Below the pieces are notes generated by a model. That model searched no databases. It was not told the DNA's origin and saw only the letters and a program-made list of their open reading frames with translations. From a virus, in the UHGV virus genome UHGV-0853290: a DNA stretch of 12,700 bases. One strand, 5' to 3'. Numbering within the stretch: the stretch's first letter is position 1; each line of letters begins with the position of its first letter. Both the position numbers and the translations under genes were made by a program. Shown one piece after another: positions 6,183 to 12,383 of this stretch.

Positions 6183-6798
6183 ACAATTCCAGCGAGCTGC
6201 TGGTATTAGCGAGGCGCTGGCCGCTCGCTGGTTCTCGCATATAACTTCTGCGATGAAAGAGTTTGGTATCAGCAAAGCAGAAGATCAGGCAATGTTTATT
6301 GCTCAAGTCGGGCATGAGTCTGGAGGCTTCACCCGGTTGCAGGAAAATTTCAACTACAGCGTCAGCGGACTGGCTAACTTCGTTCGGGCTGGGCGTCTCA
6401 CTCAGGGACAGGCTAATGCACTTGGTCGCCGTGCTGGTGAACCACCATTGCCACTCGAGCGCCAGAGAGCGATCGCCAATCTGGTGTACAGCAAACGCAT
6501 GGGGAACAATGCCTCTAGTGATGGCTGGAATTACCGTGGCCGCGGACTTATCCAGATTACCGGTTTGAATAACTATCGTGATTGCGGAAACGGCCTGAAA
6601 GTGGACCTGCTGGAGAATCCTGAACTGCTGGCGCAGGACGAATATGCGGCTCGTAGCGCGGCGTGGTTTTTCTCCAGCAAAGGCTGCATGAAGTATTCCG
6701 GAGATATTGTACGTGTAACTCTGATTATCAATGGTGGCAGGAACGGCATCGACGACAGGCGGGCGCGTTACTGTGCTGCTCGTAAGGCGCTGTTATGA
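6172..6798 (+). CDS. endolysin, glycoside hydrolase family 19 (chitinase-like) type
   Basis: ATG 6172 with GAGG 7 nt upstream. Motifs GHESGGF and [12 protein letters not shown] are as I recall for GH19 phage endolysins. Stop overlaps the next start (ATGA at 6795-6798). Confidence 0.75.
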
Positions 6799-6995
6799 TC
6801 TGGGCATTCGTAAAAGCATATTGGAAACAGTTGGTTATCATGGCGATCCTTGCTGTTCTGGTCATGTCAGGAGTTGTAGCCTGGAATGCACACGGCAGTC
6901 GTCAGTACGACGCCGGGTATGCGCAGGCGAAAGAAGACCGCAAAGCCGAAGAAGAAAAAGTTACGTCAGCACTACGAACAGGAGAAAGCGACTAA
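6795..6995 (+). CDS. i-spanin (Rz-like) N-terminal fragment with transmembrane anchor
   Basis: [30 protein letters not shown] is a single TMD; frame terminates at TAA 6993-6995, while the rest of an Rz-like protein continues in the +1 frame. Confidence 0.55.
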
Positions 6996-7278
6996 TGAAC
7001 GTGAAGCGCAGCAGAGGATCGATCAGGCGCGCAGCGATGCTCTTGATGCTGCCGCTCGCGCTGGCAGGTTGCAGCAACAGCTCGTTGCCATCCGTGAGCA
7101 GCTCAGGCAGTATAACGCCACTGTCGGCGCTGGGACGTCAGCCGCAGACACCGGGGTTTTGCTTGCCGACGTGCTCAGCAAATCTCTCGAGCGAAACAGA
7201 CAACTGGCAGAGTACGCTGACCGGGCATCCGAAGCCGGACGAGTCTGTGAAAAGCAGTACGATTCGCTGACCAGGTGA
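6886..7278 (+). CDS. i-spanin (Rz-like) C-terminal fragment (periplasmic coiled-coil part)
   Basis: Frame open 6886-7278; Rz-like sequence from about 6961 ([40 protein letters not shown] ... CEKQYDSLTR). Junction with the TMD frame is in the A-rich stretch GAAGAAGAAAAAG (6948-6960). Confidence 0.55.
   Translation: MHTAVVSTTPGMRRRKKTAKPKKKKLRQHYEQEKATNEREAQQRIDQARSDALDAAARAGRLQQQLVAIREQLRQYNATVGAGTSAADTGVLLADVLSKSLERNRQLAEYADRASEAGRVCEKQYDSLTR
6995..7270 (+). CDS. o-spanin (Rz1-like) outer-membrane lipoprotein, embedded in the +1 frame of Rz
   Basis: ATG 6995 with GGAG 10 nt upstream. Signal peptide with lipobox (MLLMLPLALAGCSN), Pro/Ser-rich mature part. Confidence 0.6.
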   Translation: MNVKRSRGSIRRAAMLLMLPLALAGCSNSSLPSVSSSGSITPLSALGRQPQTPGFCLPTCSANLSSETDNWQSTLTGHPKPDESVKSSTIR

Positions 7279-7289
7279 CATGGCATTTT

Positions 7290-7570
7290 TCATGGTACTG
7301 ATTTCCGGTGACGGTATATAAAACGGTACGGTAAAAATCTGTTTTTGGAAAGTTGTTACCAGTCAATTGGTTATGCTTACCGTAAATAATTGAGTGGGAA
7401 TGATTAACAGCTAACTCATAGCAACTCATTCCTATTCAGATACTAATTTAACCCTCTGTTTTTACAGAGGGTTTTTGTTTTTATGTATTCATTTCTATTC
7501 ACTCTACACCATATTTTTCTGCGGTACAGGTGACGGTATTACCTTAAAGGTATACTCTCATACCGTCATG
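7290..7570. other. attP-like region with clustered integrase arm-type repeats
   Basis: GGTGACGGTAT at 7307-7317 and again at 7529-7539; inverted copy ATACCGTCA at 7560-7568; further ACGGTA/CGGTAA units at 7323-7334 and TTACCGTAA at 7377-7385. Sits directly upstream of the integrase gene. Confidence 0.4.
7451..7482 (+). terminator. rho-independent terminator of the lysis operon
   Basis: Stem ACCCTCTG / CAGAGGGT with loop TTTTTA, followed by TTTTTGTTTTT. Confidence 0.8.
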
Positions 7571-8851
7571 AAAATGGTTTCTATACGGGTGAATTGTGCT
7601 TACCGATACAAAATTAAAAACCTCAAGCCGCAGGACAAACTGTACAAGGTCTCCGATCGTGACGGGCTGTATGTAGCTGTGCTTACGTCAGGCACGGTCT
7701 CGTTTCGCTATGACTACCGTATCAACGGTCGCCGCGAAACACTGGTAATCGGGCAGTATGGGCGTGACGGTATCAGCCTGGCAGAAGCGCGAGAAGAACT
7801 GATTGCTGCAAAGAAGCTGCTTAAAGCAGGCCAGTCACCGGCTGCGGCTAAACGTGACGGTATCAAAAAGATTCGTGGTGCAGAGACGTTTACGGTACAT
7901 ACCGACAGTTATATGAAACGCGTCATCCTGGCTGACAGTACCCGCGCAATGAAGCAGGCGGTGATCGACCGTGACATACTTCCAGTTCTTGGCAACAAAA
8001 TGATGACTGAAATTACCACATCGATGGTTCGTGATTTGTGTGACCGGATTGTCGAACGCGGTGGTCGGGCAACAGCAGTACAGGCAAGGGAGATCATCAG
8101 CAGCGTATACCGTCACGCCAATGACCGTGGTCATGGTTTGTTTAATCCTGCGGCTGACATTAAACCTTCGTCTATCGCCATATTTAAACCAAGAGAGCGA
8201 ACACTGACACCAGAAGAAATTGGCCTGTTCTTCCGCAAGCTGGATGCCATTGGTGCTATGGGCACTATGAAAATGGCTTTAAAGCTGGTGCTTATCACTA
8301 TGGTTCGTAAAGGCGAATTCACCAACGCAACGTGGGATGAAATAGATTTTAAAAAATGGACATGGACAATTCCTTCAGACCGCATGAAGGGAAGCCGGGC
8401 GCACGTTATTTACCTGCCTAAACAGGCTCAGGATATATTGGTCGGGTTGCAGATGTGCGCTGGTGGAAGTGAATATCTGGTTCCTGGTCGTTACAATTTC
8501 CGGAAGACATTATCTAATGCCGCGCTGAACTCTCTGATCGACAGAACGGTGAAAATAATAAATGAAGATGGTGAGCATATTCAGGGCTTCACCGTACACG
8601 ATATGCGCCGTACAGCCAGTACATTGTTGCATGAGGCTGGTTATCCTTCAGACTGGATTGAAAAGGCTCTGGCACATGAGCAGAAAGGTGTGCGCGCCGT
8701 ATATAACAAAGCGGAATACGCCAGACAGCGCGCCTACATGTTGCAGCAGTGGGCCGATATGATTGATTCCTGGATTGACGGGGAGCATACGGATCTGATT
8801 CCGTTCTCCCCGTCGAAGTTTGAGAAGTGGATGGCGGAGAATAACGTTTAA
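7568..8851 (+). CDS. int: tyrosine-type phage integrase
   Basis: Frame 7475-8851; preferred start ATG 7568 (7574 also possible), since 7475 is a TTG inside the terminator U-run. N-terminal arm-binding pattern (LKPQDKLYKVSDRDGLYVAV...FRYDYRINGRRE) and C-terminal HDMRRTAST ... VYNKAEY. Confidence 0.85.
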   Translation: MKMVSIRVNCAYRYKIKNLKPQDKLYKVSDRDGLYVAVLTSGTVSFRYDYRINGRRETLVIGQYGRDGISLAEAREELIAAKKLLKAGQSPAAAKRDGIKKIRGAETFTVHTDSYMKRVILADSTRAMKQAVIDRDILPVLGNKMMTEITTSMVRDLCDRIVERGGRATAVQAREIISSVYRHANDRGHGLFNPAADIKPSSIAIFKPRERTLTPEEIGLFFRKLDAIGAMGTMKMALKLVLITMVRKGEFTNATWDEIDFKKWTWTIPSDRMKGSRAHVIYLPKQAQDILVGLQMCAGGSEYLVPGRYNFRKTLSNAALNSLIDRTVKIINEDGEHIQGFTVHDMRRTASTLLHEAGYPSDWIEKALAHEQKGVRAVYNKAEYARQRAYMLQQWADMIDSWIDGEHTDLIPFSPSKFEKWMAENNV

Positions 8852-9042
8852 TTATTCTGCTGATTTTCTTCCATCTCGGCTTCTGCTGCCAGTGATTCAA
8901 TTTTATCTGTGAATATTGCTGACAGTGTTGCAAATTCAGCATCAGTGACAGCGGGAATTGGAACAAACCTGATCCCGCTGTGTGCAAGCATGTTTGCAGT
9001 TTCAAGGCATTTCCTTAAATCTGCTGGTGATGCCCTGTTCAT
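8848..9042 (-). CDS. hypothetical protein (64 aa), coupled to the methyltransferase gene
   Basis: ATG 9042 overlaps the methyltransferase stop (ATGA); GGGAG upstream. Acidic C-terminus. Its stop overlaps the integrase stop on the opposite strand. Confidence 0.45.
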   Translation of the reverse strand: MNRASPADLRKCLETANMLAHSGIRFVPIPAVTDAEFATLSAIFTDKIESLAAEAEMEENQQNN

Positions 9043-10090: not shown

Positions 10091-10339
10091 TCATGCAGCG
10101 TTGCTCACAGGACGATATACACGTTGCTGAACCGGAGGCTTTTTACCCTGGAACACTGCCGGGCTTGCTGCCTGACGTTCATCAAGCCAACGCTCAATTT
10201 CGTCACGGTTCCATGCGCAGCGTTTGTCAGTGATATACCAGCGTTTAGGAAATTCACCTGCGCGCTCCATACGGTCGATAGTGCTCCATGACAGTGGCAC
10301 CACCGCCAGGAGTTCCTTCTTACCTAATGCACCTTTCAT
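10091..10339 (-). CDS. AlpA-family HTH protein (excisionase/transcriptional regulator-like)
   Basis: ATG 10339 with GAGAGG upstream. LSWSTIDRMERAGEFPKRWYITDKRCAWNRDEIERWL matches the AlpA/Xis-type winged-helix pattern. Confidence 0.6.
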   Translation of the reverse strand: MKGALGKKELLAVVPLSWSTIDRMERAGEFPKRWYITDKRCAWNRDEIERWLDERQAASPAVFQGKKPPVQQRVYRPVSNAA

Positions 10340-10388: not shown

Positions 10389-11270
10389 TTACATAGATGT
10401 TTCGTTTAATTCTTCCCGACGAACGCTGTAAACGTCGGTGGCTTTTGCCAGCAGTTCGTCATCATCTGAAAGTTTTTGTGCAATGTATTTGTAAGCCTTA
10501 TCCAGTTCGGAGACAGTGCTGTAATTCATCGCTGCGCTGGTAAAGGCCATCAGCATTTCTTCTGGATCACGGCTATCCGCTTTACGCGTTTGCTCATCAG
10601 GCTTTTTCACTGTTTTAGCGTTGATCAGACTATTCATTCCCGCAGCCGTAGTTGTTTGCGGAGTAATGTCTCGTTCAACGCGCGGTGCCGTTTCCTGTAA
10701 TTCGTCAGGGGTGTAAACACCGAGAAGTACATCAGGAGCGTGCAGGCGAGCCCATCGTTTCGTGCAAAGATAGGCAAGCTGCTGGCGCGGATCCTGTTCC
10801 CACAATGGAGAGTTACGCACTCCGGCTTGCGCCATACTGATGGTAAGCTCACGGGGTTCTGCTTCTCCTTTAAGAACTGCTGACACAGTTACCGTCAGAT
10901 TCGGTGATTTATCTGTATTGCCGTTAACATTCGACCAGTCACCGCTCCAGCGATAATTCAGGCGTGTCGCTAGCAGGCTGGAAGAAGATACGACCGCGTT
11001 TACCAACTGTGCTTCGTAGCCTAACGTTCCGTTTACCACATGCGTTTTCTGCGCCACGGCGAAAGGGTTCATTCCCCACTGTGCCGCCTGCATGGTCACC
11101 GCCAGACAATCGGCAGGTTTGCCTTCAAGATGTTTCGGTACAGTCGCTTTGCTTTGTGACATCAACTCTGCGAAACGCACCAGTTGATTCATGCCCTCCG
11201 GGCTGAAGATTGCCGCAGCAGTACCTACAGTTGCGCCTGGTTGTGATGTGATTGCGATATCATTGCTCAT
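10389..11270 (-). CDS. RecT/Redbeta-family single-strand annealing protein
   Basis: ATG 11270 overlaps the upstream stop (ATGA). AAQWGMNPFAVAQKTHVVNG resembles the Redbeta/RecT core (lambda Bet, from memory, has ANQYGLNPW). Confidence 0.75.
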   Translation of the reverse strand: MSNDIAITSQPGATVGTAAAIFSPEGMNQLVRFAELMSQSKATVPKHLEGKPADCLAVTMQAAQWGMNPFAVAQKTHVVNGTLGYEAQLVNAVVSSSSLLATRLNYRWSGDWSNVNGNTDKSPNLTVTVSAVLKGEAEPRELTISMAQAGVRNSPLWEQDPRQQLAYLCTKRWARLHAPDVLLGVYTPDELQETAPRVERDITPQTTTAAGMNSLINAKTVKKPDEQTRKADSRDPEEMLMAFTSAAMNYSTVSELDKAYKYIAQKLSDDDELLAKATDVYSVRREELNETSM

Positions 11271-12106
11271 ACGTACATATCCTGTTTACGTGCCCAGTCA
11301 GGGCGTTTAATAATTTCCACTCCGCCCCACTCATCGTTGATGCGGCATTCGTGATAGGTATTCAGATCCCGGCGGAACAGAGCGTGCCCGGCATCGACAT
11401 CCGGAGCATCCAGCTCGAACACGCGTACCGGATATCGACCACAATCAATGCTTTCGCTCACGGCAAGAAAGAAAAAACCATGCGGCTGACCAGTAACCCT
11501 CATTGCGCCTTCGCGATACATTGCGTCCTGCACGTGGTAGCGGAATTCCTCGATGTGGCGTGCAAAACGGTCCATATCTGCAACCTTTTTCACGTCGACG
11601 ATCACGTTGTGCTCGTTCAGCCATTTGTCTGGACGAATGCGGCACAACTCACCAGTCTCTTCATCGTTCCAGTACATTGATGCTTCGCAGTAACCAGGTG
11701 CTTCCAGCATCCAGCGTGCCGCCGGGTGAGCCATTGCGCTATCACGCATCAGCTCCAGTTTCCGCCACTGCTCGGCATCAAGTACCGTAATCCCCATATC
11801 CGCTACATCACGAAGAAATGCTTCTTCGTCAGCTTTACCTTGTTTCGTCCGACGATCGAACTTTGGTGAAACAATGAAGCGTTTGTCGAATTCTCCAGGT
11901 TCCAGAAGCAGACAGTGCAGAGCAGTACCCATGTCCAGTGCAGATTTCTTCTCTTCGTCTTCTGGTGCTGCCTGAACCCATTTAAGAAGCGCCGGATTCT
12001 TGGCAACCATGTCCAGTTGCGACTTACTCACGCCGTCACCGGCGTGGTAGTCATCGTTGCTGATGTCGAATAAATTCCCGGTTTCATGCCGCGTCCCTCT
12101 GTCCAT
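11267..12106 (-). CDS. PD-(D/E)xK exonuclease (RecE/YqaJ/exonuclease VIII-like partner of RecT)
   Basis: ATG 12106 (TTG 12109 alternative). Motifs GTALHCLLLE, RIRPD, IVDVKKV, YHVQDAMY fit a RecB-like nuclease fold; directly upstream of and coupled to the annealing protein. Confidence 0.7.
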   Translation of the reverse strand: MDRGTRHETGNLFDISNDDYHAGDGVSKSQLDMVAKNPALLKWVQAAPEDEEKKSALDMGTALHCLLLEPGEFDKRFIVSPKFDRRTKQGKADEEAFLRDVADMGITVLDAEQWRKLELMRDSAMAHPAARWMLEAPGYCEASMYWNDEETGELCRIRPDKWLNEHNVIVDVKKVADMDRFARHIEEFRYHVQDAMYREGAMRVTGQPHGFFFLAVSESIDCGRYPVRVFELDAPDVDAGHALFRRDLNTYHECRINDEWGGVEIIKRPDWARKQDMYV

Positions 12107-12383
12107 CAAGCTGATCCGCCAGATCCCAGCGGGCGATAATTGCCATTGCCTCGCGCCGGTAGGAATCCATCAGTTCTTCGAACTCAGGGCTGTCTTTAGC
12201 TGCTTCCAGCACTTCCTGGCGAACGCCTTTGCCTGTTACAACGTCGAAAGCTGAGGCCAGTTGATGAAGCCGGATACTCTCAATCAGTTCGACTTGTCGG
12301 TCATATAGCTGTTCTGACAGGCGGTAGTCCTTGTCGAATGCCAGCATGATTTTTTGAAGATTTTTCTGCTGATTAACGTTCAT
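12084..12383 (-). CDS. hypothetical protein (99 aa)
   Basis: ATG 12383 with GGGAGGG upstream (ATG 12398 alternative); overlaps the exonuclease start by 23 nt. No family recognised. Confidence 0.5.
   Translation of the reverse strand: MNVNQQKNLQKIMLAFDKDYRLSEQLYDRQVELIESIRLHQLASAFDVVTGKGVRQEVLEAAKDSPEFEELMDSYRREAMAIIARWDLADQLDGQRDAA

What the first reader, a model, noticed from the sequence alone, without database searches (positions are those of the whole stretch)
7290..7570. attP-like cluster of direct and inverted (A/G)CGGTA repeats upstream of the integrase, with phage genes on both sides
GGTGACGGTAT occurs at 7307-7317 and 7529-7539, with an inverted copy at 7560-7568 overlapping the integrase start and further ACGGTA/TTACCGTAA units in between, around the lysis-operon terminator. 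Such arrays are typical arm-type integrase binding sites. Both flanks are phage DNA (lysis genes left, early genes right), so the window shows the vegetative or circular arrangement, or the integrase belongs to an adjacent element in a tandem or composite array. The last repeat also overlaps a box A-like palindrome (7539-7553), suggesting coupling of int expression to the box A regulator.
Basis: partly seen in the sequence, partly recalled or inferred. Interest (0 to 1): 0.45.

Follow-up and report, generated by a model that had tools for sequence, protein, structure and literature searches.

The report
Known attP of a phiV10/epsilon15-like phage
The repeat cluster is the phage attachment site (attP) of a phiV10/epsilon15-type phage that integrates at the end of the host guaA gene; its core has been shown by experiment and its repeats are already annotated in relatives, so the finding is correct but ordinary.

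Summary
GTGACGGTAT occurs exactly at 7308, 7530, 7764, 7854 (+) and 8107 (-), with a 1-mismatch inverted copy at 7560-7569; 0.58 such matches are expected by chance.

The window is 92-95% identical to Escherichia phage phiV10 (Uetakevirus) and has the same gene order. In 572 E. coli genomes, related prophages break at window 7389-7405. This 17-mer, ATTGAGTGGGAATGATT, is the last 15 nt of guaA plus 2 nt. It is the published attP/attB core of phiV10, epsilon15 and ZX5.

The epsilon15 GenBank record already marks four of these 10-mers as integrase-binding sites. It also marks the "box A" dyad (ATTACC-N5-GGTAAT) as repressor sites.

Points this analysis adds:
- Across 80 guaA-linked integrase homologues, the repeated hexamer tracks the integrase arm-binding domain (ACGGTA with FRYDYR..GRRET, ATGGTA with FRYNYS..GRQET).
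- The two copies inside int are the most invariant DNA in the gene, so they are constrained as DNA.
- The terminator copies the host guaA terminator.
- The window has frameshifts in holin, Rz and the 5' end of int.

No Int binding has been measured. Verdict: already known; low interest.

The parts
7308..7329 (+). P-arm tandem arm-type sites: GTGACGGTAT (7308-7317) and AAAACGGTAC (7320-7329). The ACGGTA hexamers are 12 bp apart.
   Evidence: Exact repeat. TGACGGTATATAAAACGGTA is invariant in 8 phages of 78-97% identity. It stays with attR in E. coli prophages. The first 10-mer is annotated as an 'integrase' protein_bind site in epsilon15.
7361..7373 (+). IHF-like site AGTCAATTGGTTA (1 mismatch to WATCAANNNNTTR). 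A second such site lies on the minus strand at 7383-7395.
   Evidence: Consensus scan. TCAAT..GTTA is conserved in the 8 phages. epsilon15 annotates IHF sites at the homologous place. This is a consensus match only.
7389..7405 (+). attP core ATTGAGTGGGAATGATT: the last 15 nt of guaA (I-E-W-E-stop) plus 2 nt.
   Evidence: Right-hand matches in E. coli prophages begin at 7389 next to guaA. Left-hand matches end at 7405 next to yfgI. The empty attB rebuilt from attL and attR is uninterrupted in 4463 of 5426 E. coli genomes. The same 17-mer is published as the attP/attB core of ZX5, phiV10 and epsilon15 (PMC9782041).
7426..7438 (+). TCATTCCTATTCA: an inverted near-copy of the core (11 of 13) and the first of a direct-repeat pair. 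Candidate site for the excision factor (RDF) or another accessory protein.
   Evidence: Repeats D6 and I1. Conserved in the 8 phages. Pairs with the core when folded as RNA, -18.8 kcal/mol, z -4.6. Each lineage of the integrase family has its own repeat pair at this place. The function is inferred.
7450..7483 (+). Rho-independent terminator whose stem is identical to that of the host guaA terminator.
   Evidence: Terminator scan. Fold -15.9 kcal/mol, z -5.8. Phage AACCCTCTGTTTTTACAGAGGGTT against host AACCCTCTGTTACTACAGAGGGTT in attR and attB. All nine guaA-adjacent family members examined by eye carry a terminator just after the guaA stop.
7489..7501 (+). TCATTTCTATTCA: second copy of the pair that flanks the terminator.
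7521..7539 (+). P'-arm tandem arm-type sites: GCGGTA (7521-7526) and GTGACGGTAT (7530-7539). The hexamers are 12 bp apart.
   Evidence: CGGTA.A..TGACGGTATTACC is invariant in the 8 phages. A tandem pair about 130-150 nt past the guaA stop recurs across the family. The second site is annotated as 'integrase' in epsilon15.
7538..7556 (+). Repressor-operator-like dyad ATTACC-TTAAA-GGTATA ('box A') overlapping the likely int -10 hexamer TATACT (7551-7556).
   Evidence: TACC-N5-GGTA occurs 7 times in the window against 0.08 expected, 10 times in phiV10 and 13 times in epsilon15. Seven epsilon15 copies are annotated as 'repressor' sites. The half-sites are invariant and the spacer varies in the 8 phages. 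The -10 is read by eye; the strict promoter scan found no promoter here.
7560..7569 (-). Inverted arm-type site (ATGACGGTAT on the minus strand).
   Evidence: An inverted copy 28-38 nt after the tandem pair recurs across the family. Changed in 3 of the 8 phages, one of them only to a G-U wobble; two have uncompensated mismatches.
7568..8851 (+). Integrase gene as it reads in this window, from ATG 7568. The start conserved in relatives is GTG 7596, which is out of frame here.
   Evidence: Pfam Arm-DNA-bind_3, Phage_int_M and Phage_integrase. About 98% identical to phiV10 Int from residue 6 on. One A is missing at 7616-7620, whereas 82 of 82 relatives have the extra base.
7764..7775 (+). In-gene arm-type copy GTGACGGTATCA (codons for R-D-G-I).
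   Evidence: The longest invariant run of nucleotides (12 nt) in the first 975 nt of 13 int genes, where only 12% of amino-acid-invariant degenerate codons are themselves invariant. GAC GGT is kept in the Pantoea, Pseudomonas, Buttiauxella, Proteus and Tolumonas homologues. Annotated as 'integrase' in epsilon15.
7854..7865 (+). Second in-gene arm-type copy GTGACGGTATCA.
   Evidence: GACGGTAT is one of three next-longest invariant runs, 8 nt each. GAC GGT is kept in the distant homologues that have D-G here. Annotated as 'integrase' in epsilon15.
7893..7906 (.). In-gene palindrome-like CGGTA-C-ATACCGAC.
   Evidence: CGGTA and ATACCGAC are invariant runs in the enteric clade. In Proteus the same region holds GACGGTAT at +287 and ATACCGTC at +304.
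10091..10339 (-). AlpA-family gene, the likely excisionase (RDF).
   Evidence: Pfam Phage_AlpA, E 1.6e-05. The epsilon15 homologue gp33 is annotated 'excisionase and transcriptional regulator'.

Best explanation
This is the attP of a phiV10/epsilon15-type (Uetakevirus) temperate phage.

How it most likely works:
- Int is a tyrosine recombinase with an N-terminal arm-binding domain. It exchanges strands within the 17-bp core ATTGAGTGGGAATGATT (7389-7405), which is shared with the 3' end of host guaA.
- The (G)TGACGGTAT repeats are arm-type sites for the Int N-domain. There is a tandem pair in the P arm (7308-7329). In the P' arm there is a tandem pair (7521-7539) and an inverted copy (7560-7569). 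Probably two to three further copies lie inside int (7764, 7854, 7893-7906).
- IHF-like sites (7361-7373, 7383-7395) would bend the P arm.
- After integration, guaA keeps its last five codons and its stop codon, and gains a near-copy of its own terminator (7450-7473).
- The int promoter (-10 TATACT, 7551-7556) lies between P' sites and under a repressor-type dyad. Int would therefore be shut off by its own product and by the prophage repressor.

Shown: the core, the junctions and the empty attB; repeat excess and conservation; the Int domains. Inferred: that Int binds the repeats, the promoter position, autoregulation, and repressor control.
For: Identity of the phage:
- 95% identical to phiV10 over lysis-att-int, and collinear with phiV10 19550-32096.

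Core:
- Junctions in 572 E. coli genomes lie at 7389 and 7405. The flanks are guaA and yfgI. The attB is intact in 4463 of 5426 genomes.
- The same 17-mer was verified by PCR and sequencing as attP/attB for ZX5, and is cited as proven for phiV10 and epsilon15 (PMC9782041).

Repeats:
- 7 matches against 0.58 expected.
- Invariant blocks in 8 phages of 78-97% identity.
- Annotated as integrase-binding sites in epsilon15.

Int:
- Int has the Pfam Arm DNA-binding domain.
- In 80 guaA-linked homologues (52-90% aa identity), the repeated hexamer follows the N-domain signature without exception. The 20 with FRYDYR..GRRET repeat ACGGTA; the 60 with FRYNY[SAT]..GRQET repeat ATGGTA. The tandem, inverted, direct layout is shared.

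In-gene copies:
- They are the most invariant DNA in int.
- They keep GAC GGT in homologues of about 60% identity despite differing codon usage.

Precedent:
- An int promoter inside attL with negative autoregulation is established for KplE1 IntS (PMC2951348).
Against: - No Int footprint or minimal attP has been found for this family. The GIsul2 paper does not analyse arm sites.
- The link between motif and N-domain rests on two clades, so shared ancestry could produce it.
- The strict sigma-70 scan found no promoter in 7100-7700; the -35 is poor.
- The inverted copy varies in 3 of 8 phages, and the 8107 copy is not conserved.
- The IHF sites are 1-mismatch consensus matches only.
- In this window Int itself may be defective, because of the frameshift at 7616-7620.
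Confidence: 0.85

Rival explanations
1. The repeats around the int start are RNA elements. The inverted repeat 7531-7568 would form a hairpin that is processed by RNase III, as the epsilon15 record annotates for the homologous 26874-26912. They would not be DNA sites for Int.
For: The predicted hairpin is -16.1 kcal/mol with z -3.9. epsilon15 carries an 'RNaseIII' annotation over this stretch.
Against: - No pair shows a compensatory change in the 8 phages, and the variation that exists breaks pairs: 3 cells in the outer helix and 4 in the inner.
- The same 10-mer also occurs as direct copies in the P arm and inside int.
- In distant relatives the inverted copy lies 28-38 nt from the tandem pair with unrelated sequence in between.
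- If the -10 is at 7551-7556, the int mRNA would lack the left arm of the hairpin.
- No Rfam family reaches its threshold.
Confidence: 0.07
2. The GTGACGGTAT repeats are bound by another phage protein rather than by the Int N-domain. Candidates are the AlpA-type excisionase or the repressor, whose dyad half-site RGGTAA resembles the repeat.
For: An AlpA-family gene is present. The repressor-type dyad shares GGTA with the repeat and abuts it at 7538-7554. No binding data exist.
Against: - The motif class follows the Int N-domain signature in elements that are otherwise unrelated, phages and genomic islands alike.
- The sites lie on both arms, in tandem pairs 12 bp apart.
- The repressor dyad occurs only in Uetakevirus-like members of the family.
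- A separate, lineage-specific repeat pair (7426-7438 and 7489-7501) is a better excisionase candidate.
Confidence: 0.08
3. The integrase and its repeats belong to a separate element, such as a satellite or island, inserted next to the phage lysis genes. They would not be the phage's own attP.
For: P4-type integrases are common on satellites and islands. Homologues on GIsul2-like islands use the same guaA site.
Against: - The same lysis-att-int-early gene order is found in the packaged genomes of phiV10, epsilon15, SPN1S, ZX5 and others.
- Prophage ends fall exactly at the core, with int at one end and the lysis genes at the other.
- A head-to-tail pair of the same kind of prophage is possible and does not change what the site is.
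Confidence: 0.02

Closest known systems
attP of Salmonella phage epsilon15 and Escherichia phages phiV10 and vB_EcoP_ZX5 (Uetakevirus), which integrate at the 3' end of guaA
   Same: The 17-bp core is identical and sits between Rz and int. The same GTGACGGTAT 10-mers lie at homologous positions, together with the same terminator and the same int. The block from 7309 to 7328 and the core region are invariant.
   Different: Sequence identity is 95% (phiV10) and 83% (epsilon15). The window has a 1-nt deletion at the 5' end of int. The epsilon15 record marks four Int sites; this analysis adds the tandem partners, the inverted copy and the 7893-7906 element, and finds the 8107 copy not conserved.
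KplE1 (and HK620) IntS/TorI module: the attL arm overlaps the int promoter, and int is negatively autoregulated (Panis et al. 2010, PMC2951348). From my own knowledge, phage P4 int is also repressed by Int and Vis.
   Same: int is transcribed away from the core, from a promoter inside the P' arm. Arm-type sites flank or overlap the -10. The excision factor gene is separate and lies in another operon.
   Different: The target is a protein-coding gene (guaA), not a tRNA. Autoregulation has not been tested here. A repressor-type dyad is added at the promoter. Extra arm-type copies lie inside int.
Phage lambda attP (P and P' arm-type sites, IHF sites, core)
   Same: A heterobivalent tyrosine integrase; arm repeats on both sides of a short core shared with attB; IHF-like sites in the P arm.
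   Different: The arm-binding domain belongs to a different Pfam family (Arm-DNA-bind_3, P4 type). int points away from att and has its own promoter. The core is longer (17 bp of identity). The P' sites extend to, and probably into, the int coding region.
GIsul2-family genomic islands at guaA (core GAGTGGGA; PMC9376610)
   Same: The integrase is homologous (about 54% aa identity). It uses the same guaA 3' target and core motif. The layout downstream of guaA is the same: terminator, then tandem, inverted and direct repeats.
   Different: The repeat is ATGGTA rather than ACGGTA, and the N-domain signature is FRYNYS..GRQET. No copies lie inside int. The int start is 320 nt from the guaA stop rather than about 190 nt. 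The element is an island, not a phage.

Membership tests
phiV10/epsilon15-type attP (guaA-specific) | Core ATTGAGTGGGAATGATT shared with the 3' end of guaA, with the prophage junctions at that core | tested here: met
   Exact 17-mer at 7389-7405. attL and attR junctions seen in E. coli genomes, and the empty attB is intact. Published core.
phiV10/epsilon15-type attP (guaA-specific) | Location between the Rz/Rz1 lysis genes and a P4-type int, within a Uetakevirus gene order | tested here: met
   Collinear with phiV10 19550-32096. Every phiV10 protein tested was found in the window, in phiV10 order.
Lambda-type (heterobivalent) attP with arm-type sites | Tyrosine recombinase with a separate N-terminal arm-binding domain | tested here: met
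   Pfam Arm-DNA-bind_3 (E 5e-18), Phage_int_M and Phage_integrase.
Lambda-type (heterobivalent) attP with arm-type sites | Repeated motif, different from the core, on both sides of the core and conserved among relatives | tested here: met
Lambda-type (heterobivalent) attP with arm-type sites | Int N-domain physically binds the repeats, and the repeats are needed for recombination | not testable with these tools
   No footprint or mutational data were found. The only support is that the repeat class tracks the N-domain signature.
Lambda-type (heterobivalent) attP with arm-type sites | IHF or another bending-protein site between the arm sites and the core | tested here: inconclusive
   Two 1-mismatch matches to WATCAANNNNTTR, at 7361-7373 and 7383-7395. 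Partly conserved.
Lambda-type (heterobivalent) attP with arm-type sites | A cognate excision factor (RDF) is encoded by the element | tested here: met
   AlpA-family ORF at 10091-10339 on the minus strand. The epsilon15 homologue is annotated as excisionase. Its function is untested.
Autoregulated int with its promoter inside attL (KplE1/P4 type) | The int promoter overlaps Int arm-type sites | tested here: inconclusive
   A conserved TATACT/TATAAT lies between the sites at 7530-7539 and 7560-7569. The strict promoter scan found nothing, and no transcription start data exist.
tRNA-targeting P4-type integration site | The core matches the 3' end of a tRNA gene | tested here: not met
   No tRNA gene in the window. 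The core is the end of guaA.

The most novel reading that the evidence does not exclude
The arm-type copies inside the int coding sequence (7764-7775, 7854-7865, 7893-7906) are working Int-binding sites. Either the P' arm reaches about 500 bp from the core, or Int blocks or loops its own gene. In addition, Pint carries a prophage-repressor operator, so int would be under double control. The support is strong synonymous-site constraint on these copies. The epsilon15 record had marked two of them from sequence pattern alone.
Probability: 0.4. Interest if true: 0.4.

Novelty: already known. Interest (0 to 1): 0.18.

Why it matters
It matters little as a discovery. The site, its core and its host target are published, and the repeats are already annotated in a close relative.

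It has some practical value. phiV10-type phages are used as reporter and typing phages. The wider guaA-specific integrase family also moves resistance islands such as GIsul2. A sequence-level map of likely Int, excisionase, IHF and repressor sites, together with the ACGGTA/ATGGTA specificity split, gives clear targets for footprinting and for engineering integration vectors.

Tried and rejected
- tRNA target: ARAGORN finds no tRNA gene in the window.
- Known RNA family: nothing in Rfam comes near a gathering score in 7000-8200.
- RNA hairpin at 7531-7568: it folds well but shows no compensatory changes.
- The 8107-8116 (-) exact copy, and the units at 7328-7333, 7378-7383 and 7715-7720: not conserved in relatives, so probably chance or lineage-specific.
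- Separate inserted element: rejected on gene order.
- Exact source of the window: not found. The best matches are 99% in E. coli and 98% in phages. The int variant with five A's is absent from IMG/VR. It is present in one noisy metagenome contig.
- The epsilon15 genome paper could not be read: the PMC id I guessed is not held. What that paper says about attP is therefore known only through the GenBank features and through PMC9782041.
- Core-type Int sites around the overlap region: no convincing dyad could be defined by eye.

Full report
**1. The observation**

The sequence is as described. GGTGACGGTAT lies at 7307-7317 and 7529-7539, and ATACCGTCA at 7560-7568.

GTGACGGTAT with up to one mismatch matches 7 times in 12.7 kb, against 0.58 expected; no shuffle out of 200 reaches 7. 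Six of the seven lie in 7308-8116: exact copies at 7308, 7530, 7764 and 7854 (+) and 8107 (-), and a one-mismatch copy at 7560-7569 (-). Twelve of the window's 27 RCGGTA hexamers lie in 7311-8113.

A 10-bp-stem terminator sits at 7450-7473. The palindrome TACCTTAAAGGTA sits at 7540-7552.

**2. What the region is**

The window is a phiV10/epsilon15-like phage (genus Uetakevirus). The stretch 6700-8900 is 95.5% identical to phiV10 and 83% identical to epsilon15. The whole window is collinear with phiV10 19550-32096.

The gene order is Bro-N antirepressor, tailspike, holin, endolysin, Rz/Rz1, att, int, DUF1382, MT-A70 methylase, PerC, AlpA, RecT, RecE-like nuclease.

**3. Where integration happens**

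In 572 of 5426 complete E. coli genomes, related prophages are present and split the window. The right part starts at window 7389, directly after guaA. The left part ends at 7405, next to yfgI.

Aligning attP, attL and attR from one strain gives a shared 17-mer, ATTGAGTGGGAATGATT (7389-7405). This is the last 15 nt of guaA (I-E-W-E-stop) plus 2 nt.

The attB rebuilt from attL and attR is found uninterrupted at 100% identity in strains such as LF82, and is uninterrupted in 4463 of 5426 genomes.

The same 17-mer is the published attP/attB core of vB_EcoP_ZX5, verified there by junction PCR and sequencing. That paper states it was proven for phiV10 and epsilon15 as well (PMC9782041).

The target is guaA, not a tRNA, and the window has no tRNA gene.

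**4. The repeats were already annotated**

The epsilon15 GenBank record carries four 10-bp 'integrase' protein_bind features. They are GTGACGGTAT at the positions homologous to 7308, 7530, 7764 and 7854. The record also carries IHF, RNase III and terminator features in the same region.

**5. Conservation in relatives**

I aligned eight phages from E. coli, Salmonella, Enterobacter and Klebsiella, 78-97% identical. The invariant blocks are:

| Block | Window coordinates |
|---|---|
| TGACGGTATATAAAACGGTA (two ACGGTA, 12 bp apart) | 7309-7328 |
| TCAAT..GTTA (IHF-like) | 7364-7376 |
| GTAAATAATTGAGTGGGAATGAT (core region) | 7382-7404 |
| TCATTYCTATTCA, two copies flanking the terminator | 7426-7438 and 7489-7501 |
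| CGGTA.A..TGACGGTATTACC | 7523-7543 |
| TACC and GGTA half-sites, with a variable 5-nt spacer | 7540-7552 |
| -10-like TATACT / TATAAT | 7551-7556 |

The inverted copy at 7560-7568 differs in three of the eight phages. The units at 7328-7333 and 7378-7383 and the copy at 8107 are not conserved.

**6. Evidence that Int reads the repeats**

Int has the Pfam Arm DNA-binding domain, the central domain and the catalytic domain.

A scan of one genome per species returned 80 homologues with 52-90% amino-acid identity, from Enterobacterales to Pseudomonas, Xanthomonas and Burkholderiales. In 77 of them the int start lies 200-350 nt downstream of a guaA stop.

Each homologue has a hexamer repeated upstream of int. 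The hexamer follows the N-domain signature without exception:
- All 20 with FRYDYR..GRRET repeat ACGGTA.
- All 60 with FRYNY[S/A/T]..GRQET repeat ATGGTA. This is the GIsul2-like group.

The layout is shared. A terminator follows guaA, then a tandem pair 12 bp apart at about 130-150 nt from the stop, then an inverted copy 28-38 nt later, then a direct copy.

This fits recognition by the Int N-domain. It rests on only two clades, and nobody has measured binding. The GIsul2 paper does not discuss arm sites.

**7. The copies inside int**

I compared 13 int genes of the enteric clade over their first 975 nt. Only 12% of amino-acid-invariant degenerate codons are themselves invariant. Yet the longest invariant nucleotide run is GTGACGGTATCA (window 7764-7775, 12 nt). 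Three runs of 8 nt come next, and two of them are GACGGTAT (7856-7863) and ATACCGAC (7899-7906).

GAC GGT is kept at both D-G positions in the Pantoea, Pseudomonas lundensis, Proteus and Tolumonas homologues, which are about 60-70% identical and have differing codon usage. Only Aggregatibacter uses GGC at the first position.

These copies are therefore constrained as DNA. Whether they extend the P' arm or serve regulation is open.

**8. The int promoter and 'box A'**

TACC-N5-GGTA occurs 7 times in the window against 0.08 expected, 10 times in phiV10 and 13 times in epsilon15. In phiV10 all ten lie at the heads of transcription units or between genes; in epsilon15 most do.

The epsilon15 record marks seven of them (ATTACC-N5-GGTAAT) as 'repressor' sites. 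It does not mark the one at int. The repressor of the related phage SPC32H binds palindromic sites as a tetramer (PMC9638917).

At int the dyad (7538-7554) overlaps the -10 and lies between two arm-type sites. It is present only in Uetakevirus-like members of the integrase family.

The regulator is most likely the prophage repressor. By analogy with KplE1 IntS, whose promoter lies in attL and is repressed by IntS and TorI (PMC2951348), Int probably also represses itself. Neither point has been tested. The strict sigma-70 scan found no promoter here.

**9. Rival readings**

An RNA hairpin spanning 7531-7568 folds well (-16.1 kcal/mol, z -3.9), and epsilon15 labels it RNase III. However, none of its 14 pairs shows a compensatory change, and seven cells are broken. 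No Rfam family matches.

A separate inserted element is excluded by gene order.

**10. Provenance of the window**

The arrangement is that of free or circular phage DNA. It is also exactly the internal junction of two prophages in tandem. Seven E. coli chromosomes hold it. One of them, FDAARGOS_1301, was checked and reads guaA-int...lysis-attP-int...lysis-yfgI. The window alone cannot tell these two cases apart.

**11. Quality of the window**

Relative to phiV10 and the other relatives, the window has single-base indels in conserved genes:
- -1 at about 5901, which splits holin.
- +1 at 6963, which splits Rz.
- -1 in the A-run at 7616-7620. The conserved GTG start at 7596 then runs into a stop at 7674, and the long ORF is instead in frame with ATG 7568.
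- -1 at 8836, in the last codons of int.

The int variant is shared by one noisy metagenome contig and is absent from IMG/VR. The cause is either sequencing error or decay of the element.

**12. Verdict**

The feature is already known. The additions are modest: the family-wide match between repeat class and N-domain, the constraint on the in-gene copies, the guaA-terminator look-alike, and the repressor-type dyad at Pint.

Noticed in passing
window ~5901, 6963, 7616-7620, 8836: Single-base indels relative to phiV10 and the other relatives split holin and Rz. They also put the conserved GTG start of int (7596) out of frame and change the last codons of int. The cause is either sequencing error or a decaying element.
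   Followed up: partly
window 1235, 1360, 2756, 5366, 7540, 12559, 12621: The dyad TACC-N5-GGTA occurs 7 times against 0.08 expected, at the heads of transcription units. At three sites (1235, 2756, 5366) a CCATATGTGGTTT-like motif follows about 30 nt later. The same dyad is annotated as the repressor site in epsilon15. phiV10 has 10 copies and epsilon15 has 13, so this looks like one repressor acting on many dispersed operators.
   Followed up: partly
window 7450-7473, compared with L004 (attR of E. coli MS20659): The phage terminator stem (AACCCTCTGT/ACAGAGGGTT) is identical to the stem of the host guaA terminator. All nine guaA-adjacent members of this integrase family examined by eye supply a terminator right after the guaA stop.
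   Followed up: partly
window 7391-7403 with 7426-7438, and 7489-7501: TCATTCCTATTCA is an inverted near-copy of the core (11 of 13). Folded as RNA it pairs with the core at -18.8 kcal/mol, z -4.6. It has a direct partner on the other side of the terminator. Other lineages of the family carry different repeat pairs at the same place, which makes these candidate excisionase sites.
   Followed up: partly
L092-L171 (genome-contig loci): 77 of 80 integrase homologues from many Proteobacteria sit 200-350 nt downstream of guaA. This is a very widespread family of guaA-specific integrases. It has two repeat classes (ACGGTA and ATGGTA) that match two N-domain signatures.
   Followed up: yes
E. coli FDAARGOS_1301, NZ_CP070111.1 4835180-4917885 (L175, L176): Two Uetakevirus prophages lie head to tail between guaA and yfgI, with an intact attP-type junction between them. 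Six further E. coli genomes also hold the lysis-attP-int junction in one piece.
   Followed up: partly
window 10389-12109 (-): RecT and the RecE-like PDDEXK nuclease are two separate ORFs here, as in epsilon15. phiV10 annotates a single 586-aa fusion.
   Followed up: no
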